DNA of 64,000 nt. Origin: Phyllobates terribilis. Taxonomy: Eukaryota. Positions 1-40,900 of the stretch are shown one piece after another. Within the stretch, counting starts at the first letter, position 1, and every line of letters starts with the position of its first letter. The position numbers and the translations under genes are program-made. The notes under the pieces are model-generated. The model was given only the letters and a program-made list of their open reading frames with translations. It had not been told where the DNA came from and searched no databases. The stretch covers positions 208,630,001 to 208,694,000 of the forward strand of contig NW_027362773.1 in NCBI RefSeq assembly GCF_046119375.1, written 5' to 3'.

Positions 1-462
1 GCTCTGGAACTGCCCGGGAGTTGGCCGAGTCCCGCACCTGGTGGACGCAGCACGGCTTGGGTGGTCACTCTTGGCCGAAGTGACCGGAGCAACACCTGTG
101 AGTAAAAGCCTTGAAACTACACCGCACGTCTCTGAGCTTCCTTGCTTCACCATCACCACCACTGTCATCTACATCTGCTGCCCTGAGGCCATACCCCTCC
201 CGTTGGGGGTTATACCATCTACGCTGCACAATCCTATCACCGGCCTCAGCGGTCTGCCCTGCAGCGGCGGCCTCATAGCCGCAATCAACGGGTGGCGTAG
301 TCGAACATTTTAACATCTACTGCAAAACGCTGCCGCCTAGTTTGACTCCCTGGGCACGGACCGGGTCACCGCCACGAGACTACTACTCCCATCGGATCCG
401 GCTCCGGGTAAGCCCTCCCCCGTGCGCGCGATGCCGCGCAATGAAGGCCCAGGGGCGCGTCA
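1..462 (+). repeat. 5' LTR (3' part only; start lies before the window) of the LTR element at 1-4286
   Basis: No difference seen by eye from 3825-4286 (offset 3824). Ends ...GCGCGTCA and is followed 4 nt later by a PBS. Confidence 0.93.
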
Positions 463-466
463 ACTT

Positions 467-485
467 TGGCGTAGTCGGCAGGATT
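467..485 (+). promoter_or_regulatory. Primer-binding site complementary to the tRNA-Ser 3' end
   Basis: TGGCGTAGTCGGCAGGATT is the reverse complement of AATCCTGCCGACTACG-CCA, the vertebrate tRNA-Ser(AGA)-type 3' end. It sits just after the LTR's terminal CA. Confidence 0.9.
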
Positions 486-718
486 TCGTGCCCGCAACTA
501 CCGGGTACTGCGTGCCTGAAGAAAAGTTTATATGTACCGTAAGAAGAAGTCTCCCGCCAGTTCCAGAGGGTCCCCGCCATCGGACGCCATCTCGGGTCGT
601 TTCCCGCCGTTTGCCCGCCATCTGCAGCCTTTTCCCGCCATCCGCAGAGTTTCCCGCCATTAGGAGACGATTCCCGCCATCTGAGACGATTTCCCGCCCT
701 GGCAGAGCGGACGCCATT

Positions 719-2520
719 ATGGGCGTGCCAGAGGGTGGCAAGAGACGACCTCCCATCGTGGGCCTGGTCCCAGAAGAGCGCCAAAAGCAAAGACCGCCCC
801 CACCAGCAGAGACTGCAATGATAGAGATGTCCATCAGAGCGAGGGGTCTGCCCCTGGAACTGACAATCACCAAGTGGCCCCGGGACCACCCTCAGTATGG
901 GCGGATCAAGAACAAAAGAGAGAGGATGGGTGCAGCCTGGAGGAGTCTGGACAGATCGCACCCGGAGATGGAGGGAGAGTCAGGCAGCACCGACCCTCTG
1001 GTCAGGAGCCTGTTGCAGGCCGCCACCCCAGAAGGCCTGGTGGAGATCCTGGCACAGCTCCCCAAAGATCGGGAGCATGCACAGACCGCGCTGGAGGGCT
1101 TGGCTCGGAAGATGGCCCGAGTGCAGCAAGAAGTGCTGGCCGAGTGGAGCAGAGAAATGGCCCTACAGGCTGGAACCCGCCAGCAGAGGACGCCACCCGC
1201 AACGAGGAGCATGCCTGCCCCTGAAGATGGTGCAGGAAGAACGAAGGCCGGAGACGACGCCGTGGAGGGAGCCAAAGAGATGGAAGCAGGTAAAGGGGAC
1301 GTCACCACCCCGTGCCCCGTGGCCGAAAGCCTGTCCCAGCTCCCCGTCGCAGAGCCTGAAGTTCTACTTACCGCGCCCGTTGCTGCACCGCCACTGCTCC
1401 CAGCTAGGCCTCAAGCGGCAGAAGCCGCAGCCACGCCCCCTTCCGCGCTACGCTCCTTGACTCCGAGTACGGCGAAGCAGGAAACGCCACCGGCCTGGTC
1501 GCAAGGCCGAGTACCCCCGGGCGCCGCCGTTTCCACAGTGCCCTTCACCTTCAGAGCGCCACCGGCCTGGTCGCAAGGCCTGGTGAATCCGGGCGCCGCT
1601 ACCACCACCGCGCCCTCAACCTCCATAGTGCTACCCTTGGGTGAAGACCTGTTCGCACAACATACTTGCCCGGATGGGCAGTCCTTTGTGTGGCCACCAG
1701 AGTACGTCAATCCCCGACTCCGGAAGGAATGGCCCCTGTGTGAGCCCCTGATCCCGGCTCCGGGGCCTGCCAAGATCACCCCACTCCCGTTGGAGGAGGC
1801 TCAGTTCGCATGGGACCCCACCGGTGAAAACCTCATGGGGTTCACCCAAGAGACCCGGGCAGCCGCAGCCCAGCGTGTGGCGTGCTGCCGACAACAACTA
1901 GAGGTCTTCAACAAAGAACGGCAAGAGAGGCGGGTCCGCGAGGAGCGGCTGCAGGTACAGAGCGCGGAGCAGAAACGCCGGACCCGGCGAAACCCCCGTG
2001 TAGCCCACGGTCCACGCGCCACCGGGACCGTAATCAAGTTCCAACTGGAGCACGGTTGGGGCTTTATCCGGGATCACAGAACCCCCGGCGACGTCTTTGT
2101 CACCCGCAGGGATGTCGAGAGCCATCTGCCGGAGGGACACCGAGGACATGACCTTTACCCGGGTGACGAGGTCACCTTCACCCGGCATCAGTGTGCTAAA
2201 GCAGGGTTCCCCAACTCCAGTCCTCAAGGCCCACCAACAGGTCATGTTTTCAGGATTTCCTTAGTATTGCACAGGTGATGGAATTATTGCCTGTGCAGGT
2301 GATGCAATTATCACCTGTGTAATACTAAGGAAATCCTGAAAACATGACCTGTTGGTGGGCCTTGAGGACTGGAGTTGGGGAACCCTACGCTAAAGGACCG
2401 TACGCCCTTCACGTGCACCGGTTAACGGAGGAAGAGCTGCGGTATGAGGAAGATCAAGAGGACCCGGACGGGTCTGAAGACTACCCTCAGGAGGAGACAA
2501 GGAGAGGACACCGCTGCTGA
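719..2520 (+). CDS. LTR-element ORF, about 535 aa when reconstructed: helical N-terminus, Pro/Ala-rich linker, charged coiled-coil, cold-shock domain, acidic tail; interrupted by a MITE at 2202-2387
   Basis: First ATG after the PBS is at 719. CSD: ATGTVIKFQLEHGWGFIRDHRTPGDVFVTRRDV...LYPGDEVTF (RNP1/RNP2-like). Removing the MITE and one TSD gives in-frame ...QCAK-GPYALHVHRL...RGHRC* (stop 2518-2520). Confidence 0.8.
2202..2387. mobile_element. hAT-type palindromic MITE (186 bp) inserted in the cold-shock domain
   Basis: Long TIRs CAGGGTTCCCCAACTCCAGTCC... 8-bp TSD TGCTAAAG/CGCTAAAG. Same family as 7209-7394. Confidence 0.9.
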
Positions 2521-3068
2521 AGGGAAGTAGCATAAACTGAAGCTGTATATAGTTACCCGTAGGGGTATTTGTCATACTGCTAATTAAAGTGTGTTCCCCG
2601 TCGGGACTAGTGTGAATTGTTCCCCGTGTGCCCCTATCCCCACAGGCTGAGGACTGTGAGCAGCCATTCCTTATCCCCACAGGCTGAGGACTGTGAGCAG
2701 CCATTCCCCTGTTCCCACTGGCCGAGGACTGAGAGCGGCCATATCCTGTGGTTAGTTGCGCTTCCTAAGGCGCCCCCTACCGGTTTTATAGGAGAACTGT
2801 TTTTCTATCAGTGATTGTGGCACTTTACCTGGTCACAAGTTGCACGGTGGCCAGGGATCAAGAACGTTTATTATGGAAAAGTTTTATATCAAAAGTTTAT
2901 ACTGCTAGAATAATATATAAGAAGTTACCTGTCATGTTATATTTACTGATAATGTTTTACCTGTTAGTGTATGTTTTAAAAGAAAAAAAAAAAAAAAAAA
3001 GTTTGTAAGTTTTGGTATGTTTTACTCTTTTCCAGCCCGAGGACGTTCTGTGGTTTACCAGGGGGGAA

Positions 3069-4286
3069 TGTAGCACCCCGAGGATTCGGCTGCTACAGGG
3101 GTATTGCACCTCAAACCAGAGGTGTGGTATTCCACTCCCGGGTAAGGATGGAGTGTGGGACTGAGCTCAGATAGCTGCATGCACTACACTCACCCCATTT
3201 CCGGGGGACAGAACAACGGTACTCCCACCAAATAGTTGTGCAGGTACGACAGCGTCTGTCCCTGGCTGGAGTGGGGAGGGGGGAGGAACATCCCAGTAGT
3301 GTAGGGGCAGATAGGGGAGGGGCTCTGGGCATAGAGGTAGGAGCCCATTGGGTGCTAGTCACCTGGGCTCACACATAGAGGGAGTATATATGGTGGGCAC
3401 CATCTAGAGACAGGGGTGAGTTCTGAGAGAGAGTTCAGCCAGGAGGGCTGACAGGGAGCTGTGGCTCCGGCTGGGCCCAGCTCCAGGGCCAGGCCTGTAG
3501 TGGAGAAAAGGAGGAAGAGAGGCCCAGAGACACAAGACAAGAGGGAACCCTGAGATCCCAGAAGTAAACCAGAAGGGTGAAGGGTTGGCAGAAAAGGGTA
3601 CCGGATCCCAAGCTGGTAGAGGCTAATCATCCTTAGCCAGGAACCGGAGGTCGTGGACAAGTTTTGGCGCGACCCCTCGCCATATCCACCAGGAAGGCAG
3701 ACCACGAATAGGGTCAGGGAAGCCGGGACAGGTTTCGCCACCAAAAGGCCCGAGGGAGCCGGACATAGGTGGGTCCCTGGTGAGGACGGCCAGTAGGAAG
3801 GAAGAGAGGGGAGCTCAGGACCACGCTCTGGAACTGCCCGGGAGTTGGCCGAGTCCCGCACCTGGTGGACGCAGCACGGCTTGGGTGGTCACTCTTGGCC
3901 GAAGTGACCGGAGCAACACCTGTGAGTAAAAGCCTTGAAACTACACCGCACGTCTCTGAGCTTCCTTGCTTCACCATCACCACCACTGTCATCTACATCT
4001 GCTGCCCTGAGGCCATACCCCTCCCGTTGGGGGTTATACCATCTACGCTGCACAATCCTATCACCGGCCTCAGCGGTCTGCCCTGCAGCGGCGGCCTCAT
4101 AGCCGCAATCAACGGGTGGCGTAGTCGAACATTTTAACATCTACTGCAAAACGCTGCCGCCTAGTTTGACTCCCTGGGCACGGACCGGGTCACCGCCACG
4201 AGACTACTACTCCCATCGGATCCGGCTCCGGGTAAGCCCTCCCCCGTGCGCGCGATGCCGCGCAATGAAGGCCCAGGGGCGCGTCA
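3069..4286 (+). repeat. 3' LTR, 1218 bp (TG...CA)
   Basis: Preceded by a polypurine tract; its 3' 462 bp match window positions 1-462. Confidence 0.92.
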
Positions 4287-5785
4287 GAGAACGAGACTGT
4301 GATCTTGGATTTATACAGGACTTGTGTCATGGACACCTGTGGGCTAGACAAGCTGGCGCATTTGGGGGAGACAGGTCAAGACAGCGTCTTCTCTTCAAGT
4401 ATCTTTTGTATGATAACTAACATTCCAAGAAGTTAATTACGCAAATGGATATTAACCAATAAGAAATAAAGTGACTCTATTGTATTCTAAGAGGATAAAA
4501 AGTCCGGTGATGTACAATAAGTTAGACAATGCTTATGATCAATGACTTCTCCACTTTCTGCTACCTTGTTTCAGATGACACCGTGCCTTGGGAGATAATT
4601 TTTCTAACAGCTTAGTCCTTCAAGCCGGAACCCAAGATCTCTCCCGCCCTTCAGGGTCGAGGCTGACACCGTGCACGGGGTGGCTAAAGGCTACTTTTTC
4701 CAAGACCTCCGGCTGAATTGCCGTAAAAAGAGGCCAGCCTCTCTGGACCCCGGGAGGGTGACTGGTTCTTGAACTGAGAGGACGGTGTCATCTGAATCAA
4801 GGTAGTTCTTTATTCTTCTCTTGCAGCAAGTGAACAAGGCATTGGTCATAAGCATTGTCCAACTTATTGCACATCACCGGACTTTTTATACTCTTAGAAT
4901 ACAATAGAGTCACTCAGATATACTTGTCTCTTTTTTATTGGTTAATATCGATTTGCCAAATTAACTTCTTGGAATGTTAGTTATCATACATAAGATACTT
5001 GAAGCGATGACGCTGTCTTGACCGATCTCCCCCGAATGCGCCTGCTTATCTAACCCTCAGGTGTCCATGACACAAGTCCTGTATAAATCCCAGACCACAG
5101 TCTCATTCTATCTCTATCCCATAAACAGGTTTGATAAATACAAATCTACAAACATTCTTTTATCCTTTCCATGAGAACATCTCTTGGAAATGCATTTTGC
5201 TACATCCTTTAACTCTTGATTTTCCTTACATTTCCCTCCTGTTTACACAAAATGTATCCCAAAAAGTTCACATTAAATCAATTCTTTCTCTTCATCAGTT
5301 ATGATAGGTCCAAATGGTTCCTCATGCTGATACATGGTTTTAGTTATAGCGGTGTCAATCAGTCTCTGGGGAATGGTTAGAATGCATGAGTTACATTGCA
5401 AAAACTATAGAAGAAAAAATTAACTGCATCGCCTGTGCACGAGCAAGGGCCGGGTTGGGGACTGCACCTTTTCAGATTAATATGGGCAATGATCCTGAGG
5501 GTTTGCAATGCATCTTATAGCTGTACAAAGACTCCAATGCTTCCACCACTTATAAAGGGAAAACGTTATCTTTGTTGTATCCCCGTTACGGGAAAAGATG
5601 TGCCCCCGCTTGTGACAGCATACCCAGGAAACTACACATGCTTCATCAGAGAGACGGACGGGAGAAATGTAAAAACGCTTGGCAAGGACTTCTGTGCCTA
5701 TACCATAAACCCGTGCCTTGGGAGATAATTTTTCTAACAGCTTGGTCTTTTGAGCCGGAACCCAAGATCTCTCCCGCCCTCCAGT
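4287..5785. mobile_element. Scrambled endogenous retrovirus relic: partial LTR (+, 4287-4584), 3' LTR (-, 5230 to 4719), env TM-tail fragment (-, about 5368 to 5273), env SU-like fragment (+, about 5371-5710)
   Basis: Minus strand reads QRLIDTAITKTMYQ...* then PPT AGGAGGGAAA, then TGTAAGG with CCAAT, TATAAAA, AATAAA, ending CA. Plus strand reads WLECMSYIAKT...NCIACARARAGLGTAPF...PGNYTCF, resembling fish/amphibian ERV env SU (with a stop and a frameshift). Confidence 0.6.
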
Positions 5786-6155: not shown

Positions 6156-9100
6156 CTGTATGTGTCCTAATATGTCCTTGTAGAAGCCAAGGTCTGGAGA
6201 AGGCTTTGCCGCATATCCGGCATGCACAGGGCAGCGTATGAGTGCGGATGTGCATCTTTAGGGCACCCAGGCTACTGTAGGATTTGGAACAATGGGGGCA
6301 ACTAAAATACCGACAGTTCCTTATTTTGTTCCCGGGGAATAATCCATCTGCTTTTGGAAAGTCTAAGCACCCAACAGAATCTGGAACATACGGCGATTCT
6401 TCCTGAGAGCTGGAGTTGCATGCGGCTTTATTCCCGGGCGCGGGGCATCCTCCGTCGGATGTTCTGCCCCTGAGAGGCATGTTCAGGTTGTTCATATTGT
6501 CTTTCAGAGGTAATCCATTTGGCAAAATTAGCAAAGCGTCGCTCCTTCTAATTTCCAGCGGGTTAAGCAATGTTTTATTAACGTGATCGCCTTGTCCTCT
6601 TTCCACTTGGATCTGTGACGTAGCGTCTCGTGTTTGCCGCTGATCTGCCATCTCTTGTCTCGGAGGAGAGGTGTCTGGGTTCTGATATAGCGACGGCACC
6701 GGTCCTGCACCAAAAGCACACAACATGATAACACCACGGATATTGGGCTGCTCGACGTGGTCAAAGATCGCAGCATGCAAAGTACTGCAACAAGCAAGCT
6801 GCAAAAGTTGGATTATTTGCAACTTGCTTGTTATGACTCCTTGCAGGTTGCAGTGCGACCACAAATACTTGCATGTAGCTGAATGAGCAAAAGATGCCGC
6901 CAGCATTTTAATGTTGCAAGTACATGGGGTCTGTTGACTAATTTTTGAGAATCACTTTCCATCAGGAGTCATCTGCAATACACCATTCTCTCCACCTGGT
7001 GTCCCTGCTTCGCAGTCCTAGCTCCTGTAAAACTTGCTAGAAATGACAGATAATTGTGTCAGTTATTAAATGGGTTTTTCGAGTTTCAGAACCCCTCCTA
7101 AAAAAAAAACACTAAATGTCCTTTACCCACCCTCCCTTGGTCCATACCTGAGTCTCCGCTGCTGCTCCTGATGTTTGTCATTGTCTGCAGCATTTATATT
7201 ACTTAGACCAGGGTTCCCCAACTCCAGTCCTCAAGGCCCACCAACAGGTCATGTTTTCAGGATTTCCTTAGTATTGCACAGGTGATAATTCCATCATCAG
7301 CACAGGCAATAGTTACATCACCTGTGCAATACTAAGGAAATCCTGAAAACATGACCTGTTGGTGGGCCTTGAGGACTGGAGTTGGGGAACCCTGACTTAG
7401 ACAGCATTGCAGCTAATTATAGCTGCCTCCTTCCAAAAACAGCACCACCTTTATCGACAGGTTGTGTGTGGTATTGCAGCTTGGCATCATTCAGTTTAAT
7501 TGAGCTGTGCTGCATTACGGGGGGTAATCTGCAGACTGTTTTTTTTTTTTGGAAGACAGAGATGTCTTTCTGACCAGATTTAAGGATCAGGTACGATAAT
7601 GGCACATGTGTGTTTTGGAGCTAGGTTTTGTAAAATCCAACTCTTGTACCATCAGAAGCTCAGGCTGCTTCTTCTTCATCCCCTATGCTTTACACTGCAG
7701 CTCTGCTGCTTCACACTAGCTGTGTATAGACATATGCTGACTATGCTGTGTATCTGGGGTCTCTGGATTTCTATTATGTACCTATATAGCAAATGTACCA
7801 AAATGTCTAGAGGGAGAGGGTAGGGAGGGAGAATCGCAGGGGTCAGCAACCTGCAGCACCGCAGCTGTTGTGAAACTACAACTCCCAGCAATCTCTGCCA
7901 GCTGCAGGTTGCTTAGGCGGCTGTTAGGACATGCTGGGACTTGTTGTTTCACAGTAGCTGGAGTGTTAACCTCTGGTACAGAGAAGGATGTGGTCTGTGT
8001 ATCGCAAAAAACTCAGCTCTAATAACTGTGAAATGGTAATTACTGACAATTTCCTACAAGGAAGGACAGCTCCGGAGCACAAAATTCTGCTCTTAACAAG
8101 TGACCAAAACTGAAATTTCCTACAATTAAAGTATGAAGTACAGCTCTGGAGCACAAAATGCTGCTCTTAAGTGAACAAAACTGAAATTTCCAGCAATTAC
8201 AGTATGAAGTACAGCTCCGGAGCACAAAATGCTGCTCTTAACAAGTGACCAAAAGTGAAATTTTCTTGAACCTAGAAAGCGTTATTACATCGGTGTGGAG
8301 ATTTAATTTACTAAGAAGCTTTTTACACCCTAGAATAAAACTGTTCTTCATCTTCCTCTTTTTTTAGGATCCAAAAAAGGCACAAATGTGACTAATTCGC
8401 TGTTACAGACACATCACGGTGTCAATCTGATAAGCCCAGCTCAAAATAAGGGGAAAAAAAATATTTTTTTTTTCCTATAACTGAATCGGTGCCTGAGCTG
8501 CTGCGGAACATCCCAGCGCTGTGCATTAAGAGACTGTGAAGAGAATAACCAGTCTTTTGTATATGGATAATTAATATCCCCTTGTGGCATAAATCCCACC
8601 CGCGTCATATAGGGGGCAGACTATTCGGAGACGGAAGGAGTGAGCTGCAGGTGCATGTGGTATGTGGTCACGGTGCAGTCACACGTCTCTCCGGCTGCAC
8701 CTGCTCCTCCGCTCCCAGAAATAGGAATTAGTTCCAGCAAGAAATCCCAGCACAAAAGCATTTCTGGGGGGCGAGAATTCACAGGGGTCGCCCACTAACA
8801 AGATAAAGTATTCTAGTTATCTGGTGTTTACTGTCCTCTATAGCGGGGACACCAGTTGTCCCCAACCCTGATCCACGGCTTCATTATCCAGCCTTGGAAT
8901 TTTGGAGCTTTCATTGAAAATTTCCATTTTTTTTTAGTATTTTCAGATCATTTTTTTGTGAATGTATTTTCTCTGTATCGGACCGGGAAAATGTAAAATA
9001 TTGCGAAAAAAAAAAAGTTTAATAAACTTCAGTAGATTGTAAAGTGATCCGGTTCTGGGAGCAAAGACTATTTTCGGGATGGGGGACACCAATTGGAAAA

Positions 9101-24673: not shown

Positions 24674-27600
24674 TCAGTTCTCGGACAGCGACAGAGCGAG
24701 GGCCGCTTGTAACGCTGCTTCTTCATCGATGCTGTAATCCTGGAAAACAAAGAGACCCCAAAATATAGGTGAGATCGGAGAGGGGGGCATACAGTATAAA
24801 ATCCTTAAAGATCGGAGAAATATTAGACACAAAGCCATTATATGACAACTCTTCCCGGACACTGTGGGGACCCACCGTTCTAGTGACCGTCCACATCAAC
24901 TTGTGAATGACACTACTGAAATCTCATGCACATGGGGCTTATTTTTTTTTTCTCCGCAGATTTAAATCTGTCAATTTTTGCTAAGTTTTTCGCCCATATT
25001 AATGAATGGGGAAAAATATGTAACAAAAACACGTTAAAAACATGTATATTGTAAGCAACGATTTTCCCGACAAACACACCAGGATCTGAAAAGAAAGAAG
25101 TTTATAAGTTGGACAAGCTCTTAACCGTCTCTGTTCTCTTGGGAGCTCAGTACATTAGCAGCCATTGGGTCTGGTGGGGAAAGATAATTGGGATTTTACA
25201 CAGGGAAACGTGATTTTTTTTTTGTTTGTTTGTTCTTTTAGTATTGTTCATTTTCTAAGTGCAATATTAAGCAATTTACTAAATCATTTTTTCAATAAAA
25301 TTTCCTCCCATTTTGTTCCACCTTAACACAAATCTCACATCCAGCCTATATTACTGGGAGAGACACACAGACCTCACACCCAGCCTATATTACTGGGAGA
25401 GACACACAGACCTCACATCCAGCCTATATTACTGGGAGAGACACACAGATCTCACACCCAGCCTATATTACTGGGAGAGACACACAGATCTCACACCCAG
25501 CCTATATTACTGGGAGAGACACACAGATCTCACACCCAGCCTATATTACTGGGAGAGACACACAGACTTCACATCCAGCCTGTATTACTGGGAGAGACAC
25601 ACAGACCTCACATCCAGCCTATATTACTAGGAGAGACACACAGAGCTCACACCCAGACTATATTACTGGGAGAGACACACAGACCTCACACCCAACCTAT
25701 ATTGCTGGGAGTGACACACAGAACTCACATCCAGCCAATATTACTGGGAGAGACACACAGAGCTCACATCCAGCCTATATTACTGGGAGAGACACACAGA
25801 GCTCACATCCAGCCTATATTACTGGGAGAGACACACAGAGCTAACATCCAGCCTATATTACTGGGAGACACACAGATCTCCCATCCAGCCTATATTACTG
25901 GGATAGACACACAGAGCTCACACCCAGACTAAATTACTGGGAGAGACACACAGACCTCACACCCAACCTATATTGCTGGGAGGGACACACAGAACTCACA
26001 TCCAGCCAATATTACTGGGAGAGACACACAGAACTCACATCCAGCCTATATTACTGGGAGAGACACACAGAGCTCACATCCAGCCTATATTACTGGGAGG
26101 GACAGAACTGCAATAGAAAAGCCTAAAACTTGTTCTCCTTGCTCGTGAGCATACATACCACAAATGTGTCGTACGAGAATTTATGCCGGTGAAGAAGGTG
26201 CTGAAGAAAATTGGCACTCTTATAGCTGGGATCCCCCCATGGCATTGCTGAACAAATAGGGCAAACCTAAAAGGAATAAAAATAAAAAGTGCAACTGTAA
26301 AAAGAGCGCTGTAACCATGTTAAATCCAATGTACAGAATCGCACAGCTTTAAGTCCTGAATAATAAAACAGACAATTCCAATAGGACGCTCCAGTTTTTG
26401 TTAAATCATTGTGAGTCCTTAAAGTGGAAGCTCACTTAGAAAAGAAAAATTCCCCCAAATGCTCAGTTGTTCTCAGGGTGTCTGATGCTGGGACCCTCAT
26501 GATTGCAAAATTTTGCTATTTTTTCATGCACTTTGATCTGCATCGCACAGGAAATGTCTGAGCAAAAGCAGAAGTGTCTGACAGATGGGTGTTAGTTTGC
26601 AAAGTGCTGCAAATACATGATATTTTCTCTTCCAGAAGTTGATCACGGCAGGAGATGAGTAAACTGCAGAATAAAGCATGGGTGCACTATGTTTTTTAAT
26701 CAAAAGGACACCCTGTAACTTTTCCTAAAAGGTCCCGTCTTCTCCGAGATCCACTCCTATGCTGGGACTTACCACTTTGTTGGGGTCACTTCTATGGTTC
26801 TCCATGCAATGTTTCACAAGTTCTTGCTGGTCCAGGTTTCGGGCTCCGCAATATGGACACACGAAGGTGGAACGGTTTGGAATATTACTGTGAAAAGTGA
26901 CAGCAGATGAAAAAAAAATACATGATTGGCAATATGATAAACAGGGGGAAACAGAGTTCACAAATGGTTTAAAAAATAATATTTATTAAGTATCTTAAAA
27001 ATATATAGAAATATATAACAAGAGTAATAAGACAAAAAGAAAGCTGTCCACAGCACATATATGAAAGTACAATGTATCTAGCATGTGCTAATATAGCAGG
27101 CAGCCCCACTACAAACACCCATAGTAAGTATATTGCAAAATGTCTGGAAAACCAGTGATCACAGTAAAAGATGTTAATGGAGTATGGGGAAAGTGAAACA
27201 GTCTTACCGCACCGCAGTGGGGTTGAGAGCTCAGGTAGACAGAGGAGGAAATGGAAGGAAGCCCGACGCGCGTTTTGAGTTTTTCAATGACGCTTTCTCA
27301 AGGGTCAGGTGAGACTGTTCCCCTCTCCCCATACCCCATTAGCATCTTTTACTGTGATCACTGAATGGGGTATGGGGAGAGGGGAACAGTCTCACCTGAC
27401 CCTTGAGAAAGCATCATTGAAAAAAGCGAAACGCGCGTTGGGCTTCCTTCCATCGCCTCCTCTGTCCACCTGAGCTCTCAACCCCACTGCGGTAAGACTG
27501 TTACCCTCTCCTCATACCCCATTAGCATCTTTTACTGTGATCACTGGTTTTCCAGGCATTTTGCAATATACTTACTATGGGTGTTTGTAGTGTAATTTTC

Positions 27601-30600: not shown

Positions 30601-33600
30601 GGGAGAGGCAGAGCTCACAATCTCCGGTCTAGTTGTTGGGGTTAGGCTCTGTGAGGCTGGTCATGTTCTTCCAACCATGTCTGTGTGGACCTTGTGCACT
30701 GGGCACAGTCATGGGGAACAGAAAAAGGTCTTCTCCAAACCGTTACCACAAAGCTGGAAACTGCAATTGTCCAAAATGTCTTGTGCTGAAGGATTATGAT
30801 TTCCCTTCATTGGAACTGAGGCCCCAATGCCGACCCCTGATAACAGCCCATAGCATTATCCCTCGTCTACCAAACTGTACAGCGGGCACAAAGCAGTCAA
30901 GCAGGTAACGTTCTCCTGGCATTCACCAAACTCAGACTCCCCCATCAGATGCCAGAGAGAAAAGTGTGATCCGTCACTGCACAGAACACGTCTCCTCCAG
31001 AGTCCAGTGGTGGCAGCTTTACACCACTCCATCAGACGCTGAGCAGTGTACTTGGTGATGTGCGGGTGCATGCATCTGCTCAGCCATGAAGCTTCCAGCG
31101 GGGGCGCAGTGTTTGTGCTGATACTAGAGGAGGTCTGACTGCAGTTATGGGGTCAGCAGAGCGGTGGTGACTTTTCTGCCATGTGCTCCATAACCTGCCA
31201 CTCTGTAACGTTACTGGGTCTCCACTTCCTGGCTGAGTTGCTGCGGTTCTTTCCACTTCTCAGTAATATCACTCACAGGTGATGGGGGAAGATTTAGGAG
31301 GGAAGAAATGTCATGAACGGACTTGTTACCCCTGTGGCCCCTATTACAGGACTGCGCTGGTATCAGTGAGCTCTGCACCACCGGCCGTTCTGTCACATGT
31401 TAGCAAGGGCAGACGTCATGGCAGGGGGCCGGAGGTTATACACCGGGAGCAGAGGGGACAGATGTTATACACTGGGAGAATGAAAAGATGAATACTTCTC
31501 TCGGTATAGTGTATATCTACACAGTTATGCAGAATATAAAGCCACCATTCCTCTTATGTCTGGGTACATTGCCAGTCTAAAAGGGGATGTCCTATAAACC
31601 ACATTTATTTCCTATTCTCAGTACAGCTGATCAATGTATGATTACAGGGGGGTTTAGCTGCTGATATTCCCACCGATCCAGAGAAGCGGAGCCCAAGAGG
31701 TTGCCTGTATGAATGGAGAGGTAATGCACATGTGCAGTCATCCCCAATATAGACAGGTGATAGAGCAGTAGCTGCTCATGATCGGTGGGTGTCACCAACA
31801 ATCGGACCCCCCGCAATCTGATATTTATCATACATCCTGTGGATAAGTATAAATAAGTATTTATAAAACAACTGTGACATTCTGATAATGAACCAGAGAA
31901 ATCAGGAAGCAGAGAACCAGGTCTGTACAGTGAGGGAGACATCTGGTTACTGCTGGAAATTAGATTACAGATAATGACATAAATGGATATAAAGTGAGTG
32001 ATTATGAGCAGTGACAGCACACTCCGGCCAGAGGGAGATTAAAGGGACACTCCAGCAGTCAATGATCCCAATATGTATTGAGCATCCAATTGATATTCGG
32101 GGTGATATGGAACAATGTAGGAAAGTGATCTCCAACAGATGCCTCTCCGAGTTATAAATCGTATTATACTCCAGTGCTGTATTCTCAATTCTACGGGTAT
32201 AAAAGCTAAAACAGCACAGCATTCCCTGCTTTTTCAGTTTCTAAACAAAGCTCTAGAAAAAGGTACAGTCAGCTAATGTAGGAAAAACAAATCAATCTAC
32301 TGGGTATGAGTGACAACAATCTTGTTCACTGACAGAACAGAGAGCGCAGCTCTGGAGTATAATACAAGAGGTAACTCAGGATCAGTAATGTAATGTATGT
32401 ACACAGTGACTGCACCAGCAGAATAGTGAGTGCAGCTCTGGAGTATAATACAGGATGTAACTCAGGATCAGTAATGTGATGTATGAACACAGTGACTGCA
32501 CCAGTAGAATAGTGAGTGCAGCTCTGGAGTATAATACAGGATGTAACTCAGGATCAGTACAGAATCAGTAATGTAATGTATGTACACAGTGACTGCACCA
32601 GCAGAATAGTGAGTGCAGCTCTGGAGTATAATACAGGATGTAACTCAGGATCAGTACAGAATCAGTAATGTAATGTATGTACACAGTGACTGCACCAGCA
32701 GAATAGTGAATGCAGCACTGGAGTGTAATACAGGATGTAACTCAGGATCAGTACAGGATAAGTAATGTAATGCATGTACACAGTGACTGCACCAGTAGAA
32801 TAGTGAGTGCAGCTCTGGAGTATAATACAGGATGTAACTCAGAATCAGTAAAGGATCAGTAATGTAATGTATGTACACAGTGACTGCACCAGCAGAATAG
32901 TGAGTGCAGCTCTGGAGTATAATACAAGAGGTAACTCAGGATCAGTAATGTAATGTATGTACACAGTGACTGCACCAGCAGAATAGTGAGTGCAGCTCTG
33001 GAGTATAATACAGGATGTAACTCAGGATCAGTAATGTAATGTATGTACACAGTGACTGCACCAGCAGAATAGTGAGTGCAGCTCTGGAGTATAATACAAG
33101 AGGTAACTCAGGATCAGTACAGGATCAGTAATGTAATGTATGTACACAGTGACTGCACCAACAGAATAGTGAGTGCAGCTCTGGAGTATAATACAGGATG
33201 TAACTCAGGATCAGTAATGTATGTACACCGTGACTGCACCAGCAGAATAGCGAGTGCAGCTCTGGAGTATAATACAGGATGTAACTCAGGATTAGTAATG
33301 TAATGTGCAGAATAGTGAGTGCAGCTCTGGAGTATAATACAGGATGTAACTCAGGATCAGTAATGTAATGTATGTACACAGTGACTGCACCAACAGAATA
33401 GTGAGTACAGCTCTGGAGTTTAATACAGGATGTAACTCAGGATCAGTAATGTAGTGTATGTACACAGTGACTCCACCAGCAGAATAGTGAGTGCAGCTCT
33501 GGGGTAAAGTACAGGACAGGTAACGTATGTACACAGTGACTGTACCAGCAGAATAGTGAATGCAGCTCTGGAGTATAATACAGGATGTAACTCAGGATCA

Positions 33601-34418
33601 GTAATGTATTTATAAAGATACAGTTTCACATTATAAAGTGGGCCATATATCGTCACCGGAATAAGGAACCTGTGTCAGTCTTGGCTGCAGCTTTACAACG
33701 GTTATGGGGAAACTGATGGAGGAGCTTCCAGTCTGATGTCTTGTCTACGAGAGCAGCAGGTACCAGAGCTGAATAGAACACGCAGTAATATAATGCACTA
33801 ACACTATGCTGGACCGGGCTACATAAAAATAGAAGAGCGCCTCACACAACGATAGCAATAAATTATTTACAGAAGTCATCGATTCTAATAAACCTCAGAG
33901 CTGAACTCCCAATTCAGCTGCAGCACCCAAGTCAGAATTTTCGGTGACTTTCCCATTCATTTGAAAGGCGTTTGCAAAAAATCAGTGCACCCGCTGCAGA
34001 GGACAGACGGGTGTGACTGGGGGCCAAAGGCGTCCCATCCTCCTGCGCCCCCACTGTATCATTGTAAGGGGCTCCCCAAAAACATGGAGGAACTTGTCCA
34101 TGAAATCTGATGGTGGACATCCCCTTTAAGTTTCCATCCTGGGGGCATATTATACTATGGGGGGGGGGGGGGGGTCTCTGACGCTGTATATAAGGTGCCC
34201 CTTGATGACGGGTTACCCATCCCCCACCCCTTGTCCTCCATTACTCACGTGTGACCGCAGCTCCCGATGGCCACAGGCTTGTAATACACCTCCAGGCAGA
34301 TGGGGCAGCCATACTGCGTCTCCAGGCTGTCTGCGGACGGCGAGGACTGGCTCTGGTGAGTATGGTGCTGCTGCCGGTGCTGGGAGGACGAGGACACCAG
34401 ACTACGGAACATTGCCAT
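24674..34418 (-). CDS. RNF166: E3 ubiquitin ligase RNF166; exons 34418-34249, 29071-28915, 28076-27964, 26887-26773, 26266-26159, 24739-24674
   Basis: MAMFRSLV...CPICLEVY...[26 protein letters not shown]...[18 protein letters not shown]...[21 protein letters not shown]. All junctions GT-AG and in phase. Candidate AATAAA at 23858-23853. Confidence 0.98.
25326..26100. repeat. 39-bp minisatellite, about 20 copies, RNF166 intron 5
   Basis: CTCACATCCAGCCTATATTACTGGGAGAGACACACAGAC tandem units. Confidence 0.97.
27107..27592. repeat. About 486-bp fold-back palindrome with a Penelope-type hammerhead relic in each arm, RNF166 intron 3
   Basis: Arms CACTACAAACACCCATAGTAAGTATATTGC... and ...GCAATATACTTACTATGGGTGTTTGTAGTG; each arm has CCC-TTGAGAA...(G)AAACGCGCGT(C/T)-GGG. 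Confidence 0.75.
29843..30131 (+). mobile_element. tRNA-derived V-SINE with an L2-type tail
   Basis: A/B-box head GGTGGCTCAGTGGTTAGC...GGTTCAAGAC; V-domain GTTTGTATGTTCTCCC...GGGTTTCCTCCGGGTTCTCCGGTTTCCTCCCAC; tail TGTAAAGCGCTGTGGAATATGTTGGCGCTATATAAAT(ATT)n. Confidence 0.88.
30384..31350 (-). mobile_element. Old, degenerate Tc1/mariner fragment
   Basis: [16 protein letters not shown]...[12 protein letters not shown] resembles Tc1 KPHITxxNAKRRxEWCK...WSDESRF; TIR-like CACTATATGGACA at the left end. Confidence 0.7.
32341..33608. repeat. About 70-80 bp minisatellite, about 17 copies, RNF166 intron 1
   Basis: GCAGCTCTGGAGTATAATACAGGATGTAACTCAGGATCAGTAATGTAATGTATGTACACAGTGACTGCACCAGCAGAATAGTGAGT units. 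Confidence 0.97.
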
Positions 34419-34922: not shown

Positions 34923-37900
34923 ATGTGTGAAGTCCTGGAAGGGGAAGAATTGGATTGGGGGAAAGAGGAGAAAAGTGACAGGTGAGCAGGGGCAACATTG
35001 TCTCTCAGAGGCCAGGAAAGCTGAGTGACAACCAGTATGGCCGCCTCAGCTAGATGTTGACAATTCCTGCCTCTGCTTTGCCCCCTAGAGGTAGTCAATG
35101 GCCTCCTTCACAGTGCCCACTAAAGGTAGTCAATGGCCACCTTCACAGTGCCCCCTAGAGGTAGTCAGTGGTCGCCTTCACGGTGCCCCCTAGAGGTAAT
35201 CAGTGATCGCCTCCACAGTGCCCCCTAGAGGTGGTCAATGTCCAACTCTGCAGTGCCCCCTAGAGTTATATAATGACCGCCTTAACGGTACCCCCTAGAG
35301 GTAGTCAATGGCCACCTTCACGGTGCCCCCTAGAGGTAGTCAATGGCCGCCTTCGCGGTGCCCCCTAGAGGTAGTCAATGGCCGCCTTCGCGGTGCCCCC
35401 TAGAGGTAGTCAATGGCCGCCTTCGCGGTGCCCCCTAGAGGTAGTCAATGGCCGCCTTCGCGGTGCCCCCTAGAGGTAGTCAATGGCCGCCTTCGCGGTG
35501 CCCCCTAGAGGTAGTCAATGGCTGCCTTCGCGGTGCCCCCTAGAGGTAGTCAATGGCCGCCTTCACGGTGCCCCATAGAGGTAGTCAATGGCCGCCTTCA
35601 CGGTGCCCCCTAGAGTTATATAATGGCCGCCTTCACGGTGCCCCCTAGAGGTAGTCAATGGCCGCCTTCATGCTATTCCCTAGAGGTAGTCAATGGTCGC
35701 CTTCACGGTGTTCCCTAGAGGTAGTGAATGCCCGCCTTCACATATTTTCACTCATGCATTAGAAATGAAAATAACAATTGTGCCGGTCCTGACACTTAAT
35801 CGTCACCTGCAGCGCACAGAAGACCCTGCCAACTGTTATGGGGTCCGTTGATCTATGATAAACGCGCCTGCTGTGTGAATTACATTTTTTTTTCTTACTT
35901 TGGGCAGAACCTGCCTCCATCCCAGATGTGACCCGAGTCGGGAGGAGGCACTGCAGCTCCTGGGACATGTTGGGGGAGGGGATAGTTTTCTGGTTTTCAG
36001 GCTGACGTGACTTCTCTTCTATCCTCAGGTCGGGGCAGACATGTATGAAGTGCAAGGAAAGCTCCGCCGTCCTCATCATACGGGTGGGAGACGCCTTCTG
36101 CAAGTAAGTTGTGCACATTGCGGAGTCTCTCCGCCCCCTGGGGCTAAGTCCGGAGGACCGCCTGTTACGTGACGGCATCAATAGCTCCTCTTCTGATTAG
36201 CCGGTCTGGCGCTTATGTCACACTGCAACGATTACATCGCAATGAGTTGACTAATCAAAACAAGAGCTGTGGATTCCGTCACAAAACTTTTATCTGTAAA
36301 GATCGTTCTATTTCTTGTGCATCTGCCATGTTTTTCCGCACGTGGCATTTTCCTTTAGTGGTAGATGTTGCAGTCTGAACTCCCTGAGCGGCTTGTCCTG
36401 AGCTCTTTCCCTCTCTTTTCTCGATGTAGGTCGTGCTTCAAAGAATATTTTGTACACAAATTCCGAGCCATGCTGGGGAAGAACCGAGTCGTGTATCCAG
36501 GAGAGAAGGTAACGGAACCTCTGGGTTCGATAATTACTCAAAGTGCGACCATCATTTTGAAAAAGCTGCTGATCGTAAGGGTGTATGGGGGTCCTGAGTC
36601 AAAACCCTGCTCCTACATACGCTGCACACACAGAGTGGTGCATGGGCTCTATAATAAGTTTGTGGGTCCGTACACTGCTTGGGTCTCTGAACTTGAACCC
36701 CCTCCGATCGGCAGAAATATTGAAGATATGTTAAAATTCCTACAAAGTGATAATTATACTTTAAATGTTTATTTCTAACCTGTAAAGCTACAACTTGTGG
36801 ATCCCTCGGGTTTCCAGCTTTGTGAACCCCCTAAAGATCCCAACGGGGGGGGGGGGGGGTTAAAAATGCCCCACGGGAATGGACCGGTACCTGAGCTCCA
36901 TTCATTCTCTAAGCTGAGCTTTGTGCTCTTACCCTTAGTCCCATAGGCAATGATGGGAGTGTGGTGCTCATGCTCTGCTCCACCAATTCACAAGATTTCC
37001 CCTATACTGTGGGTAGCCTGTTACTGGCCCCGGTGGTCCCGTTCTGTGCATATGACCACTGCAGCCAATCATTGTATCATTAAACGGCGACCGTTCAAAT
37101 GGCTGACCGTCCATGTAATATATAGTAGGATCACAGGATGCCCTCTATAATGTTCGTGCGGCAATATATACACACAGATTATCCCAAAAAGACGTTGGGC
37201 TCTATTCATCATTTGTGGTCCCTTTTTTTTTTTGCCTTGGCGTTTTCGACCCTGAAATTACTTAATGCTTCATGCAGGATACACACAGCAGCCTGCCATG
37301 CAAAGCTGCAGTATAAAGCATGGAGTAGGGTAGAACAATAGTTATTGCTGAGACCAACGGTACCTAAAAGACCAGGCATCTACATTACTGATCCAGCTGT
37401 TCTCCAATGCAGCAGAAGTAAATGGCAGGACTGGCCGTCCTTGCTGCGGGTGATGTGGCTTCAGAGATGCATGATCACACGAGAGGTTTTACAGCACGTG
37501 GGAAATCAAGGATTTCTGTTATGACGTCCATCTGTTTCAGGTTCTCCTGGCTTATTCTGGTGGACCGTCCTCAAGTGCTTTGATCCAGCAGGTCCAGGAG
37601 GTGAGAACACTACATGTTATACCATTATATCTTATTACAAGTAACATTGTATTTAAAGAGATTGTCCAACAATGAAAAATTAAGAAAAAAAAACACAAAC
37701 TTGTGAAGACCCAGGGTCTTCCGTGGGCATAATACCACTCAGACAACGCAGGGTGAGGGTAACACAGTGTGGCAATACTTTATTGAACCACCAAACAGAC
37801 AATAACATACAGAAGAGTCCCAACAAATACCCAAGATGGTGCAAACTACAGTCTCACCCTTCCGCTGACTTGTCGGGATTAAAGCCGCTGCGACTCCAGG

Positions 37901-40900
37901 GCACCCAGGGACGACTACCCCATCAGTGGCACCCTGCTTTTGGTGGGCCCCCATAGAGAGGAGGTAGCGGCAAGCTTAGGAAGCTGACAGTCCATTGAGG
38001 TACGTGACCAGGTGACCGGACGGTCCCAACCTGGCTTCTCCTAGCGTCTCCTTGGGGCCAGATGACCGGAGGGTCCCAACCTGGCTTCTCCGAGCGTCTC
38101 CTTGGGGCCAGATGACCGGAGGGTCCCAACCTGGCTTCTCCGAGCGTCTCCATGGGGCCATATGACCGGAGGGTCCCAACCTGGTTTCCCCAAACGTATC
38201 CATGGGTTCTGTGATAGTCAATGGAGCAGATCTGTATTCCTCCAGCTGGGGTCTTGGTCCCTTTAGCTGGCATCCTGTAGAATCCAAATCTGTGTCCCTC
38301 TTGATGGAGCTATGGTGTCCTGTAGAGCTGTCACATAGACAATCAAAATATAAAATAAATTAATCTGATCAGTAAACAGTGTAACGAGAAAAACAATCAA
38401 AACGCCATAATTATGTTTTTTTGGCCGCCACAACGTTGCAATAAGAGGAGACCAAAACTTTGTATCTAACCAAAAATGGTATCAATAAAAATGTCAGCTC
38501 AGGGCACAAAAAATACCCCCCTCAAAGCCCCATATCCTGCAAAATGAAAATGCTACGGGTCTCGGAATATGGCGACAGAAGAAAGGTTTTTTATGTTTGT
38601 TTTTTACGAATTTCTGAATAATTTTTTTTTCTACTACTTAAATAAAAAAACCTCTACATGTTAGGTATTTGCGTACTCGTACTGACCTGGAGAATCATGT
38701 TACCAAGTCAGTTTTACTGTATAGTGAACATGGTAAATAATAAAACAATTACATACGGCTATATTGACGCAAAAATATAAAAGTTATGGCTCTAAGAAAC
38801 AGGCGAGGAAAAAATGGAAGATGGCGTTAAAGGGGTGATACTTTAGGATATCCTAACATTATTACTGGTGGGGGGCTGACTTCTGGCAGTTTCTTATACA
38901 GTGGGTGGTCCGTAGTGTCAATATTCAGAGTAATTCGGAGCAGGAGGTTGCAGCACTGGAGCAGCCCCCCTTTTTCCTCGGATTATTGAGCTCTGGGTAG
39001 TGGCGGCTAATAACTTACCGGCCATAGGCCATCACTTACTATTGGGGAAACCCCTCTAATTTTTGTTGTTACCGTGTGGTCACTCATTACTTGTGATTTT
39101 GTGTTTTCCAGGGTTTGGGTCGTGACGCTCCGAAAAAGTTGCGCTTCATTCCTGGCATCCTGTTCATCGATGGTGAGTGAGAAGTACAGACTTGGAGGAG
39201 CACCGCTCACCCTCTGCCTTTGGGGGATGTGAGGATAGGACGACGTGTCTGTATCGGGGGTCTTACTGACGTCTCTTATCTTCCTGTCCTTGGGACTGAC
39301 GGTCGGGTCCTTCTTGTATTACAGAAGGTGCGGTGAGCGGACAGAGCTGGGAGCAGAGGGAACAGAGCGTGTCCGAAATACAGAGGGTTTTACAGAAGAC
39401 CACTTTCCCCTTCCATATTGTGCCCCTGGAGCAGGTACATGGGTGGTCACATCTAGGAGCGAGGAACATGGGGGGGATAATATCCGCGGCTCCTCAACAG
39501 CCGCCGCTACATTACCTTTCTTCTATAAGGTTCTGGCGTGTGATTGCGCTGCGGTTTTTTCCCGAGATCGCAATTAAACTCTGCTATTTTAATATTGGCT
39601 TTGGAAAATCCAAGGAAAGAAAAAAAGCAGCACTATCACATGGTGTGAATTTGTCCTTAGAGCAGGAGAGAGATTTGCGCTGCTGATGAGTTCAGATCAC
39701 AGAGGATTTTTCTCATGTGAAGGCAATTGTAGCAACCGCTTCAGCTGTGAGAAGTAATGTCAGGGGGGATTTTTAGCATTTTGAGGCGTTCCCTTATACT
39801 GACAGTAATCAGAGAGTCTAGAAAAAAGCAGATGATGATGGGCTGTACCAATGTCATAGGAAAACTGCTTTTTTTTTTTTTTCTTGTTCCCGTTTGTTTT
39901 GTCCCCAGATTTTCTCTCTACCACGGTCTGTTCTGCAGTCGGTTCTTCCGGAGAAACTGGAGCCTACGGAGAATTACAAGCAGGCAGTGAATAGCTTTTC
40001 AGGACAGCAGCGGGCACATGGGGCAGATGAGGTATCGGGCAGCGCTGATGAGCTGGCACAGCTCCGTGTTACTGGCGATGAATGCAGCACATACAGTCGT
40101 GTTCCTCCGGAGACCACCTCCGCACTGACTGAGGTCTTCAACTCTGCCAGGACTTTGACGGCCAAGGTGGAGCTGCTGCAATCGCTCCGGTAAGCTGCAC
40201 TCCTAATGTGCACCCGCTGCTTATACTCGCACTTTTCATCTTCTTGTTTAGTAATCGAGATTCTCCCATGTCTGTAGGAATCACCTTATCCTCCACGTGG
40301 CTCGTACATGCGGATACTCCAAGGTGATGTGCGGTGAAAGCTGCACACGTCTGGCGGCTCGTCTGCTTTCTAACATATCTTTAGGACGTGGGGCATTCCT
40401 AGCTTTGGACACGGTGAATATACTTCTTGTACAACCATGTGGAAAAGTTAGCTGCTGGGCATCCTACGCGGTGGCTGCTGGGCATCCTACGCGGTGGCTG
40501 CTGGGCATCCTACGCGGTCGCGTGCAGCTGCTCTCAATACAGGATTACATTAGGATTTTCTTTCTTTTTTAGGGTTTCTCTGATGATCGCTCTGGAGATG
40601 TGGTTATTGTCCGGCCCATGCGGGAATATTCACTGAAAGAAATATCCTTCTATAACCGGCTTTTCCATGTGCCGTCCGTCTTTATCCCCACAATGGAGAC
40701 TATGGTACCGATAAATAAGCTGCTCAGGTTGTGATGTGGCCTCTCCTGGATGGGGGTGTCAGGTTGTGGTGTTTCCTATTCTGGACGGGGGGCGCTCAGG
40801 GTGTCGTGTGGCCTCTCCTGGACGGGGGGCGCTCAGGGTGTCGTGTGGCCTCTCCTGGACAGGGGGCGCTCAGGGTGTCGTGTGGCCTCTCCTGGACTGG

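What the first reader, a model, noticed from the sequence alone, without database searches (positions are those of the whole stretch)
1..4286. pol-less LTR retroelement whose only gene encodes a cold-shock-domain protein
Seen: LTRs with no visible difference over the 462 bp that can be compared, a tRNA-Ser PBS, a PPT, and a 2.6-kb interior with one ORF of about 535 aa that lacks RT, IN, PR and CCHC motifs but ends in a CSD (RNP1-like HGWGFI, RNP2-like DVFVT, closing KGPYALHV) plus an acidic tail. Established: CSDs (CspA, YBX1, LIN28) are single-stranded nucleic-acid chaperones, which is the role of the Gag nucleocapsid. Inference: this is a recently mobile non-autonomous family that either uses a CSD in place of the NC zinc knuckle in a divergent Gag, or carries a captured accessory RNA-binding gene. 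I do not know of a described vertebrate LTR family with this architecture.
Basis: partly seen in the sequence, partly recalled or inferred. Interest (0 to 1): 0.9.

Follow-up and report, generated by a model that had tools for sequence, protein, structure and literature searches.

The report
Frog jumping gene carries RNA-binding cargo
This is a recently inserted copy of a very abundant frog jumping gene that has no copying enzymes of its own, shares its copying signals with an enzyme-bearing family in the same genome that likely moves it, and carries instead a strongly conserved cold-shock-domain gene, likely captured from a host RNA-binding protein, that likely helps its own RNA get copied.

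Summary
Observation confirmed. The whole element is 5,042 bp, with 1,218-bp LTRs differing at 2 sites, a 4-bp target duplication and a tRNA-Ser primer site. A MITE breaks the gene in this copy only. Uninterrupted natural copies encode 535 aa ending in a cold-shock domain (PF00313, 32.4 bits). It is not a divergent Gag: there is no capsid similarity, and a gag-pol Ty3/Gypsy family in the same genome, whose Gag has its own zinc knuckle, shares the LTR 3' part, primer site and leader (about 80%). The family has at least 7,373 copies. The domain is under strong purifying selection (dN/dS 0.06), yet domain-less deletion copies retrotranspose, so it is not required in cis. Related domains occur in two more pol-less LTR families here and in proteins of other frogs; a Y-box origin is likely but unresolved. 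Best reading: an accessory RNA-binding factor that favours its own RNA; function and expression are untested. Captured cold-shock domains are described in bird ERVs, and pol-less single-ORF elements in Xenopus; I found this combination in no paper searched. The scan noted this family before on other DNA of this genome.

The parts
1..462 (+). 5' LTR, last 462 of 1,218 bp (starts 756 bp before the window)
101..661 (+). Segment shared with the autonomous Gypsy family at about 80% identity: LTR 3' part from an AGTAAA motif (likely R-U5), primer site and leader with CCCGCCAT repeats (likely packaging signal)
467..485 (+). Primer-binding site complementary to the 3' end of tRNA-Ser(TGA)
719..2278 (+). 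Single ORF as read in this copy: starts at ATG 719, runs into the MITE and stops inside it (535 aa in uninterrupted copies)
986..1174 (+). N-terminal helical segment (residues 90-152), dN/dS 0.29, predicted helices at low confidence
1637..1849 (+). Conserved segment of unknown role (residues 307-377), dN/dS 0.25
1850..2014 (+). Long charged helix before the domain (residues 378-432), dN/dS 0.15, best-predicted part of the model
2015..2201 (+). Cold-shock domain, part before the MITE (RNP1-like and RNP2-like motifs)
2202..2387 (.). 186-bp MITE with long inverted repeats and an 8-bp target duplication (2194-2201 / 2388-2395); a 97% identical copy lies at about 7209-7394
2388..2520 (+). Last strand of the cold-shock domain and acidic tail, out of frame in this copy
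2632..2743 (+). Three 37-bp repeats in the 3' untranslated part
3060..3068 (+). Polypurine tract
3069..4286 (+). 3' LTR, 1,218 bp; first 856 bp (likely U3, TATATA at 3385) have no match in the autonomous family
4287..4290 (+). Right copy of the 4-bp target-site duplication GAGA

Best explanation
This is a non-autonomous LTR retrotransposon that lacks gag and pol, is likely copied by the enzymes and capsid of a Ty3/Gypsy family with which it shares the LTR 3' part, tRNA-Ser primer site and leader, and carries a conserved cold-shock-domain protein that likely binds and protects the element's own RNA and so raises its share of copying. Shown: anatomy, shared signals, absence of Gag similarity, purifying selection, spread of domain-less derivatives. 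Inferred: (1) its RNA is packaged, reverse-transcribed and integrated by the helper's proteins; (2) the domain came from a spliced host Y-box mRNA; (3) the protein is made and binds single-stranded RNA; (4) it acts preferentially on the RNA that encodes it, which would explain selection among thousands of competing copies, but it can also be borrowed in trans or skipped, which would explain the young deletion lineages.
For: Shared signals: 16 of 16 autonomous copies compared match the element only in the LTR 3' part, primer site and leader (68-83% identity), apart from one 45-bp match at the purine tract; U3 and the gene do not match. Among the first 40 primer-site loci on contig C1, 19 carry gag/pol, 17 this ORF and 4 neither. 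Helper: PNMA-like Gag with CCHC, then protease-RT-RNase H-integrase. Both kinds show 4-bp duplications. Selection on 26 distinct intact ORFs: dN/dS 0.059 in the domain (twice the log-likelihood gain over dN/dS=1: 293), 0.15 in the preceding helix (110), 0.25 and 0.29 in two upstream blocks (86, 52), against 0.67-0.70 in leader, linker and tail; pairwise counts agree. Domain-less copies: 40 of 40 scored places span one deletion junction; 10 of 10 fetched have different flanks, 9 a perfect 4-bp duplication, and LTR pairs are 98.8-100% alike. These deletion lineages are shallow (96-100% over the junction), while domain-bearing lineages reach down to 45-49% protein identity. Y-box lean: the loop after RNP2 is 19 residues in host Y-box and in four divergent relatives, 20 here, 13-14 in the bacterial and CSDE1 rows measured. 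A family profile ranks YBX1 first (66.2 bits; CspA 62.9, CARHSP1 29.8, LIN28 29.4, CSDE1 25.2). Host Y-box genes are split by introns; the element's domain is not. Host YB-1 supports viral RNA metabolism in HIV (PMC6040738, abstract).
Against: No evidence here that the protein is made or binds RNA. Three positions of the canonical binding face differ from CspA/YBX1 (the Trp before RNP1 is Lys; the His after RNP2 and the next residue are Thr-Arg), so specificity may differ. Cis preference is inferred only from selection, and the spread of domain-less copies shows it is not strict; only 2 deletion types were tested, and for the second, 10 fetched copies reduce to 5 insertion sites, partly segmental duplicates. 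The dN/dS set was filtered for intact frames holding two domain motifs, and 18 of 26 rows were found by likeness to this copy, which lowers dN/dS somewhat. The tree does not resolve the donor: none of four candidate sisters is rejected; this subfamily alone scores higher on a bacterial protein than on YBX1 (26.8 against 20.8 bits); one unrelated multi-domain row also has a 20-residue loop. Which helper subfamily moves it is not shown.
Confidence: 0.55

Rival explanations
1. The protein is a trans-acting counter-defence or host-manipulation factor. It would mimic or compete with host Y-box proteins, or blunt small-RNA silencing, and so raise the activity of all elements in the cell, helper included.
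For: Domain-less copies spread, as expected if the product is a shared good. The binding face is altered. The domain sits in families with unrelated LTRs. Gypsy expression is high in poison-frog ova (PMC6278860, passages).
Against: A purely shared product among thousands of copies should decay, yet dN/dS is 0.06. None of the 19 gag/pol copies matched the ORF in the 3.5 kb tested, and the helper proteins scanned show no such domain.
Confidence: 0.2
2. The protein is a satellite-type hijacking factor. It would bind the shared leader on helper RNA or dock on helper Gag and divert particles toward the passenger RNA.
For: The leader repeats are common to both families. The passenger is about as frequent as the helper (17 against 19 of 40). 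Helical blocks outside the domain are also conserved.
Against: No interaction was shown. The helper remains abundant and young (most LTR pairs over 98% alike).
Confidence: 0.13
3. The protein acts on DNA. It would bind single-stranded or Y-box-like DNA in its own U3 promoter or in reverse-transcription intermediates.
For: CSD proteins bind ssDNA as well as RNA (established knowledge). U3 is specific to the passenger. The N-terminal 89 residues are basic (17 K+R against 12 D+E).
Against: Related domains sit in families with unrelated LTRs, so a fixed promoter target is unlikely.
Confidence: 0.07
4. The ORF is a highly divergent Gag in which the cold-shock domain replaces the nucleocapsid zinc knuckle.
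For: It lies where gag lies, right behind the primer site, and ends in a nucleic-acid-binding domain. Gag-like pol-less elements exist in Xenopus (1A11; PMC4585706, passages).
Against: Probability 0.2% against helper Gag; no capsid match in Pfam or solved structures; only about 60 residues of predicted N-terminal helix and long Pro/Ala-rich stretches. Relatives in other frogs align only over residues 342-522. The model is of low confidence (mean pLDDT 41.5), so a fold-level test is inconclusive.
Confidence: 0.05

Closest known systems
CSD-carrying endogenous retroviruses of birds (PMC12287698; abstract, passages, two rows of Supplementary Table 6 and the Fig. S10 legend seen)
   Same: LTR retroelements that captured a PF00313 cold-shock domain; the authors suggest convergent capture may aid proliferation.
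   Different: Those 46 are Retroviridae classified by their RT, with repeated captures at varying positions; the two rows seen are close to the profile (E 1e-24 to 1e-26). Here the element is pol-less and Gypsy-dependent, the domain is its only recognised cargo, is strongly diverged, forms one clade across frog sequences, is under measured purifying selection and occurs in thousands of copies.
Xenopus 1A11 and Xretpos / lambda-olt 2-1 (PMC4585706; passages seen)
   Same: Frog LTR elements without pol, with an ORF, in multiple copies.
   Different: 1A11 is reported as Gag-like; reported ORF copy numbers are 15-30. No cold-shock domain is mentioned in the passages seen. Their sequences could not be fetched, so homology is untested.
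Autonomous Ty3/Gypsy elements with PNMA-like Gag (PNMA genes are listed under the Barthez lineage in PMC3670739, Table 1; passage seen)
   Same: The candidate helper has a PNMA-like Gag (27.1 bits in one copy, cut-off 25; 21.5 in another) and PR-RT-RH-IN order; the passenger shares its LTR 3' part, primer site and leader.
   Different: The passenger has none of the coding region and a different U3. Clade membership of the helper was not tested by an RT tree.
Plant helper/passenger LTR pairs and gene-capturing non-autonomous elements
   Same: A passenger keeps the helper's cis signals and may carry a foreign gene.
   Different: Plant systems; no cold-shock cargo known to me (recalled, not searched beyond).
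Vertebrate Y-box proteins (YBX1, YBX2/FRGY2)
   Same: Best match of the family profile; same long loop after RNP2.
   Different: Only the domain is shared; several binding-face residues differ; the flanking regions show no Y-box match; the element's copy has no introns.

Membership tests
Non-autonomous LTR retrotransposon of the Ty3/Gypsy type | Two LTRs with TG...CA ends and a short target-site duplication | tested here: met
   16 of 18 correctly paired copies have a perfect 4-bp duplication (L036 was mispaired, L045 left out)
Non-autonomous LTR retrotransposon of the Ty3/Gypsy type | tRNA primer site and polypurine tract | tested here: met
Non-autonomous LTR retrotransposon of the Ty3/Gypsy type | No protease, RT, RNase H or integrase | tested here: met
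Non-autonomous LTR retrotransposon of the Ty3/Gypsy type | Cis signals shared with an autonomous gag-pol family in the same genome | tested here: met
Non-autonomous LTR retrotransposon of the Ty3/Gypsy type | Mobilisation by that family's proteins | not testable with these tools
   inferred from shared signals only
Gag-only pol-less elements (1A11-, TR-GAG- or BHIKHARI-like; last two recalled) | Sequence similarity to a capsid/Gag | tested here: not met
Gag-only pol-less elements (1A11-, TR-GAG- or BHIKHARI-like; last two recalled) | Capsid fold in a structure model | tested here: inconclusive
   mean pLDDT 41.5; fold search not run
Cold-shock domain (PF00313) | Score over the curated cut-off of 27 bits | tested here: met
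   32.4 to 36.5 bits in uninterrupted copies; 26.8 in the window's truncated piece
Cold-shock domain (PF00313) | RNP1 and RNP2 aromatic face | tested here: inconclusive
   RNP1 aromatics and the RNP2 Phe are kept; three other face positions differ
Cold-shock domain (PF00313) | Binds single-stranded nucleic acid | not testable with these tools
   needs a binding assay
Y-box protein family | Domain groups with Y-box domains in a tree | tested here: inconclusive
   unresolved; scores and loop length lean to Y-box
Y-box protein family | Y-box similarity outside the domain, intron-split single-copy gene | tested here: not met
   matches cover the domain only; element gene is intronless and multi-copy
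Endogenous retrovirus (Retroviridae) | env gene in the element or its helper | tested here: not met
   the roughly 5.9-kb helper interior is filled by leader, gag and pol frames
Barthez lineage (helper) | Placement by RT phylogeny | not tested
   only the PNMA-like Gag match

The most novel reading that the evidence does not exclude
A frog-wide class of satellite retrotransposons whose heritable core is a captured Y-box RNA-binding gene: over tens of millions of years it has moved between unrelated LTR chassis and helpers, it wins packaging or storage for its own RNA in the germ line, it is itself parasitised by domain-less cheaters, and it has added a percent-scale share to giant poison-frog genomes.
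Probability: 0.35. Interest if true: 0.85.

Novelty: new variant of a known kind. Interest (0 to 1): 0.66.

Why it matters
Non-autonomous LTR elements are usually seen as empty shells that need only cis signals. This one keeps a non-Gag protein under selection as strong as a core gene's, in thousands of copies. That implies an accessory step in the Gypsy cycle (RNA protection, storage or entry into particles) that is worth paying for, and it offers a natural helper / passenger / cheater system in a vertebrate germ line. It also bears on why poison-frog genomes are so large, and it explains a class of frog gene models (one is named 'Y-box-binding protein 2-A-like') that may be transposon cargo. 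Function is untested, and CSD capture by retroelements is already in print for birds.

Tried and rejected
Expression: no RNA holder listed; four runs of guessed or unknown kind, all contigs, cover the element in short pieces; this says nothing on expression. Self-association of residues 86-160: no verdict. Full-length structure: low confidence. A second model of the C-terminal part was still queued at the end and the fold search could not be started. Longer or fused forms of the protein: none scored among 1,185 and 234 candidates (weak evidence). Relatives in viral and metagenome contigs: none confirmed among 25 and 200 pattern matches. ESM Atlas: CSD clusters at scores under 0.9, leads only. 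Donor by tree: unresolved; LIN28 and CARHSP1 were not in the tree. Bacterial or protist origin: not rejected by the tree; judged less likely on loop length, scores and host range. Chance ORF: rejected by selection and Pfam score. Unique copy: rejected. First ARAGORN pass found no tRNA-Ser in 4 of 4 loci; six more loci gave 3. Literature searches for the combination returned only the bird ERV paper as relevant; Repbase and Dfam could not be searched, most subscription papers are not held, and bioRxiv supplements are closed, so a catalogue entry for this family may exist.
Full report
Observation. The described parts are in the sequence. Window 1-462 equals 3825-4286 without a mismatch. With the flank fetched, the element is 5,042 bp, with 1,218-bp LTRs that differ at 2 sites and a GAGA target duplication, so the insertion is recent. 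The primer site (467-485) is complementary to the 3' end of host tRNA-Ser(TGA): 3 of 10 loci examined were called tRNA-Ser, and six others continue in CCA, three of them into this family's LTR end, as expected of primer sites extended into tRNA sequence. A purine tract precedes the 3' LTR. The single ORF starts at 719. A 186-bp MITE with an 8-bp duplication shifts the frame inside the cold-shock domain (CSD). The MITE is private to this copy: 1 of 40 scored places, 1 of 20 fetched elements. All protein work used natural uninterrupted copies.

The domain is real. A natural 535-aa copy scores 32.4 bits on PF00313 (cut-off 27, E 8e-8) and nothing else in Pfam; other subfamilies score 34.4 and 36.5. 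Solved-structure matches are cold-shock and Y-box proteins. RNP1 aromatics and the RNP2 Phe are kept, but the Trp before RNP1 and the two residues after RNP2 differ.

The family is large. An exact degenerate pattern for the RNP2 stretch has 7,373 matches, control 0 (a lower bound). The LTR-end plus primer-site pattern has 62,735 matches, control 0. Of the first 40 such sites on contig C1, 19 carry gag/pol, 17 carry this ORF (14 with the CSD, 3 without) and 4 neither. If that non-random sample held genome-wide, it would mean about 27,000 copies, roughly 1% of the 10.6-Gb assembly; this is a rough inference. In 18 correctly paired copies, LTR pairs differ at 2-18 sites and 16 have a perfect 4-bp duplication (one row mispaired, one locus left out).

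A likely helper exists. The gag/pol elements are mostly 7.7-8.1 kb, have the same primer site, a similar purine tract and 4-bp duplications. Their Gag is PNMA-like with a CCHC knuckle, followed by protease, RT, RNase H and integrase; PNMA genes are listed under the Barthez lineage in PMC3670739 (passage seen), but I ran no RT tree. In 16 of 16 autonomous copies compared, similarity to the window's element is confined to the last 300-360 bp of the LTR, the primer site and up to about 200 bp of leader (68-83%), plus one 45-bp match at the purine tract; U3 and the gene do not match. This is the pattern of a passenger that keeps the helper's copying and packaging signals, with its own promoter and cargo. 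Mobilisation by the helper is inferred, and the specific helper subfamily is not identified.

It is not a Gag. Profile comparison gives 0.2% against helper Gag and against Pol. No capsid family or structure matches (the only non-CSD match at E 0.01 or better was a ribosomal protein). The model is of low confidence (mean pLDDT 41.5), with helices at 93-155 and 377-424 and long unstructured stretches, so the fold test is inconclusive. Relatives in other frogs align only within residues 342-522.

The gene is under selection. On 26 distinct intact ORFs, dN/dS is 0.059 in the CSD, 0.15 in the preceding helix, 0.25 in residues 307-377 and 0.29 in the N-terminal helices, against 0.69, 0.70 and 0.67 in leader, linker and tail; twice the log-likelihood gain over dN/dS=1 is 293, 110, 86, 52, 5.4, 13 and 2.1. 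Pairwise counts between subfamilies agree (CSD 0.06-0.09). Caveat: one search kept only frames holding two CSD motifs and a start motif (34 rows, 26 distinct; 15 further rows lacked the start motif; broken copies were dropped), and 18 of the 26 were found by likeness to this copy.

The domain is not needed in cis. Three of the 17 sampled copies have lost it by internal deletion, and a fourth, more deleted copy was among the four unclassed. For one junction, 40 of 40 scored places span it at 96-100%; 10 of 10 fetched have different flanks, 9 a perfect duplication and 1 a one-base mismatch, with LTR pairs 98.8-100% alike. For a second junction, 31 of 40 span it, but 10 fetched copies reduce to 5 sites, partly segmental duplicates. 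So domain-less copies retrotranspose. Their lineages are shallow, while CSD-bearing ones reach down to 45-49% protein identity.

The cargo is older than this family. In the same genome a second pol-less family has different LTRs (about 1.03 kb, mostly 99% alike), the same primer site, a different purine tract and a long ORF with a related CSD, with no DNA match inside the element to this family or to four helper copies (10 loci). A third, older family has another primer site in 2 of 3 loci. A three-copy cluster on C4 holds a further variant, with no LTR pair found in the one locus examined. Among 38 hits in 1.84 billion representatives, the close ones are named from Phyllobates terribilis, Ranitomeya variabilis, R. 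imitator, Anomaloglossus baeobatrachus and Bufo bufo, plus an unnamed cluster; of the other hits, those inspected are multi-CSD proteins, the named ones from protists, and one bacterial Csp. All 22 element and frog rows, with the unnamed cluster, form one clade (100/98). Their DNA context in other species could not be read.

Origin. The tree does not resolve the donor; Y-box, CSDE1, bacterial and another eukaryotic sister are all unrejected. A Y-box origin is favoured by the loop after RNP2 (19 residues in host Y-box and four divergent lineages, 20 here, 13-14 in bacterial and CSDE1 rows; one unrelated row also 20), by three divergent relatives whose best solved match is YBX1 or YBX2 (two shown gap-free over the domain), and by a family profile that ranks YBX1 first although it included a bacterial row. 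Against it, this subfamily alone scores higher on a bacterial protein. Host Y-box genes are intron-split, which fits capture from a spliced mRNA.

Mechanism. Most likely (0.55 for the whole chain; about 0.9 for the passenger anatomy), helper proteins package and copy the RNA, and the cargo protein binds and protects its own RNA with a cis preference that is not strict. That accounts for both strong selection among thousands of competing copies and short-lived domain-less cheaters. Host YB-1 supports HIV RNA metabolism (PMC6040738, abstract). Rivals: a trans-acting counter-defence factor (0.2), a helper-hijacking factor (0.13), a DNA-acting factor (0.07), a divergent Gag (0.05). Expression, binding and localisation are untested.

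Comparison with what is known. CSDs captured by 46 bird ERVs are described (PMC12287698; abstract, passages, two supplement rows and one legend seen), but those are RT-classified retroviruses with repeated captures. Pol-less single-ORF LTR elements are described in Xenopus (PMC4585706; passages), without a CSD in the passages seen. The strawberry poison frog genome paper reports 1 Gb of Gypsy-like sequence and has no occurrence of 'cold shock' or 'non-autonomous' in its main text (PMC6278860; passages). Searches found no paper on this combination; other listed papers were seen as listings only, and Repbase and Dfam were out of reach. The scan's own notes e1-9315796 and e1-9364210 describe the same family on other DNA of this genome; the second gave the lead to the bird paper. 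They are not independent support.

Verdict. A real, young, very abundant passenger LTR retrotransposon with a conserved non-Gag CSD cargo: a new variant of a known kind, interest 0.66. This particular copy is broken by a MITE.

Noticed in passing
L246-L255 (e.g. L250:3896-6352, minus strand; G000:C4:600017500-600027400): Second pol-less LTR family with unrelated 1.03-kb LTRs, the same tRNA-Ser primer site and a related CSD closer to Y-box in loop length; young (LTR pairs about 99% alike). Its autonomous partner was not sought.
   Followed up: partly
L187, L189 (G000:C1:502746000-502755900; C4:629336500-629346400): Third, older CSD family with a different primer site and LTR pairs 85-93% alike; the 150 scored relatives mostly have short open frames.
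   Followed up: partly
L166/L200, L201, L202 (G000:C4:791.48-791.52 Mb): Three-copy local cluster of a divergent CSD gene with no LTR pair found around L166; a possible domesticated or very old member.
   Followed up: partly
L225, L259, L262: Primer sites that run on into tRNA-Ser sequence well beyond 18 nt and adjoin the LTR end of this family or its helper; a footprint of tRNA-primed reverse transcription.
   Followed up: partly
L156-L161 (G000:C1:734.44 Mb): Intronless, interrupted and partly duplicated copy of the host multi-CSD gene CSDE1, likely a processed pseudogene; L176 looks like a decayed Y-box pseudogene.
   Followed up: no
window 2202-2387 and about 7209-7394: Two copies (97% alike) of a 186-bp MITE with long inverted repeats and an 8-bp target duplication, hAT-like by recalled features.
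   Followed up: partly
window 4288-5109: The element is inserted next to one end of a fold-back repeat with long inverted arms (4288-4561 / 4823-5109, 91% complementary), likely another non-autonomous DNA element.
   Followed up: no
L190, L195; pairs of hits 3.6 kb apart: Tandem arrays of the element that share an LTR between units.
   Followed up: no
P0021: A Bufo bufo gene model named 'Y-box-binding protein 2-A-like' groups with the element domains, not with the host Y-box row; it may be transposon cargo.
   Followed up: partly
window 25326-26104, 32333-33608, 35079-35741, 40787-42971: Minisatellite arrays (periods 39, about 86-97, 35 and 37 bp).
   Followed up: no
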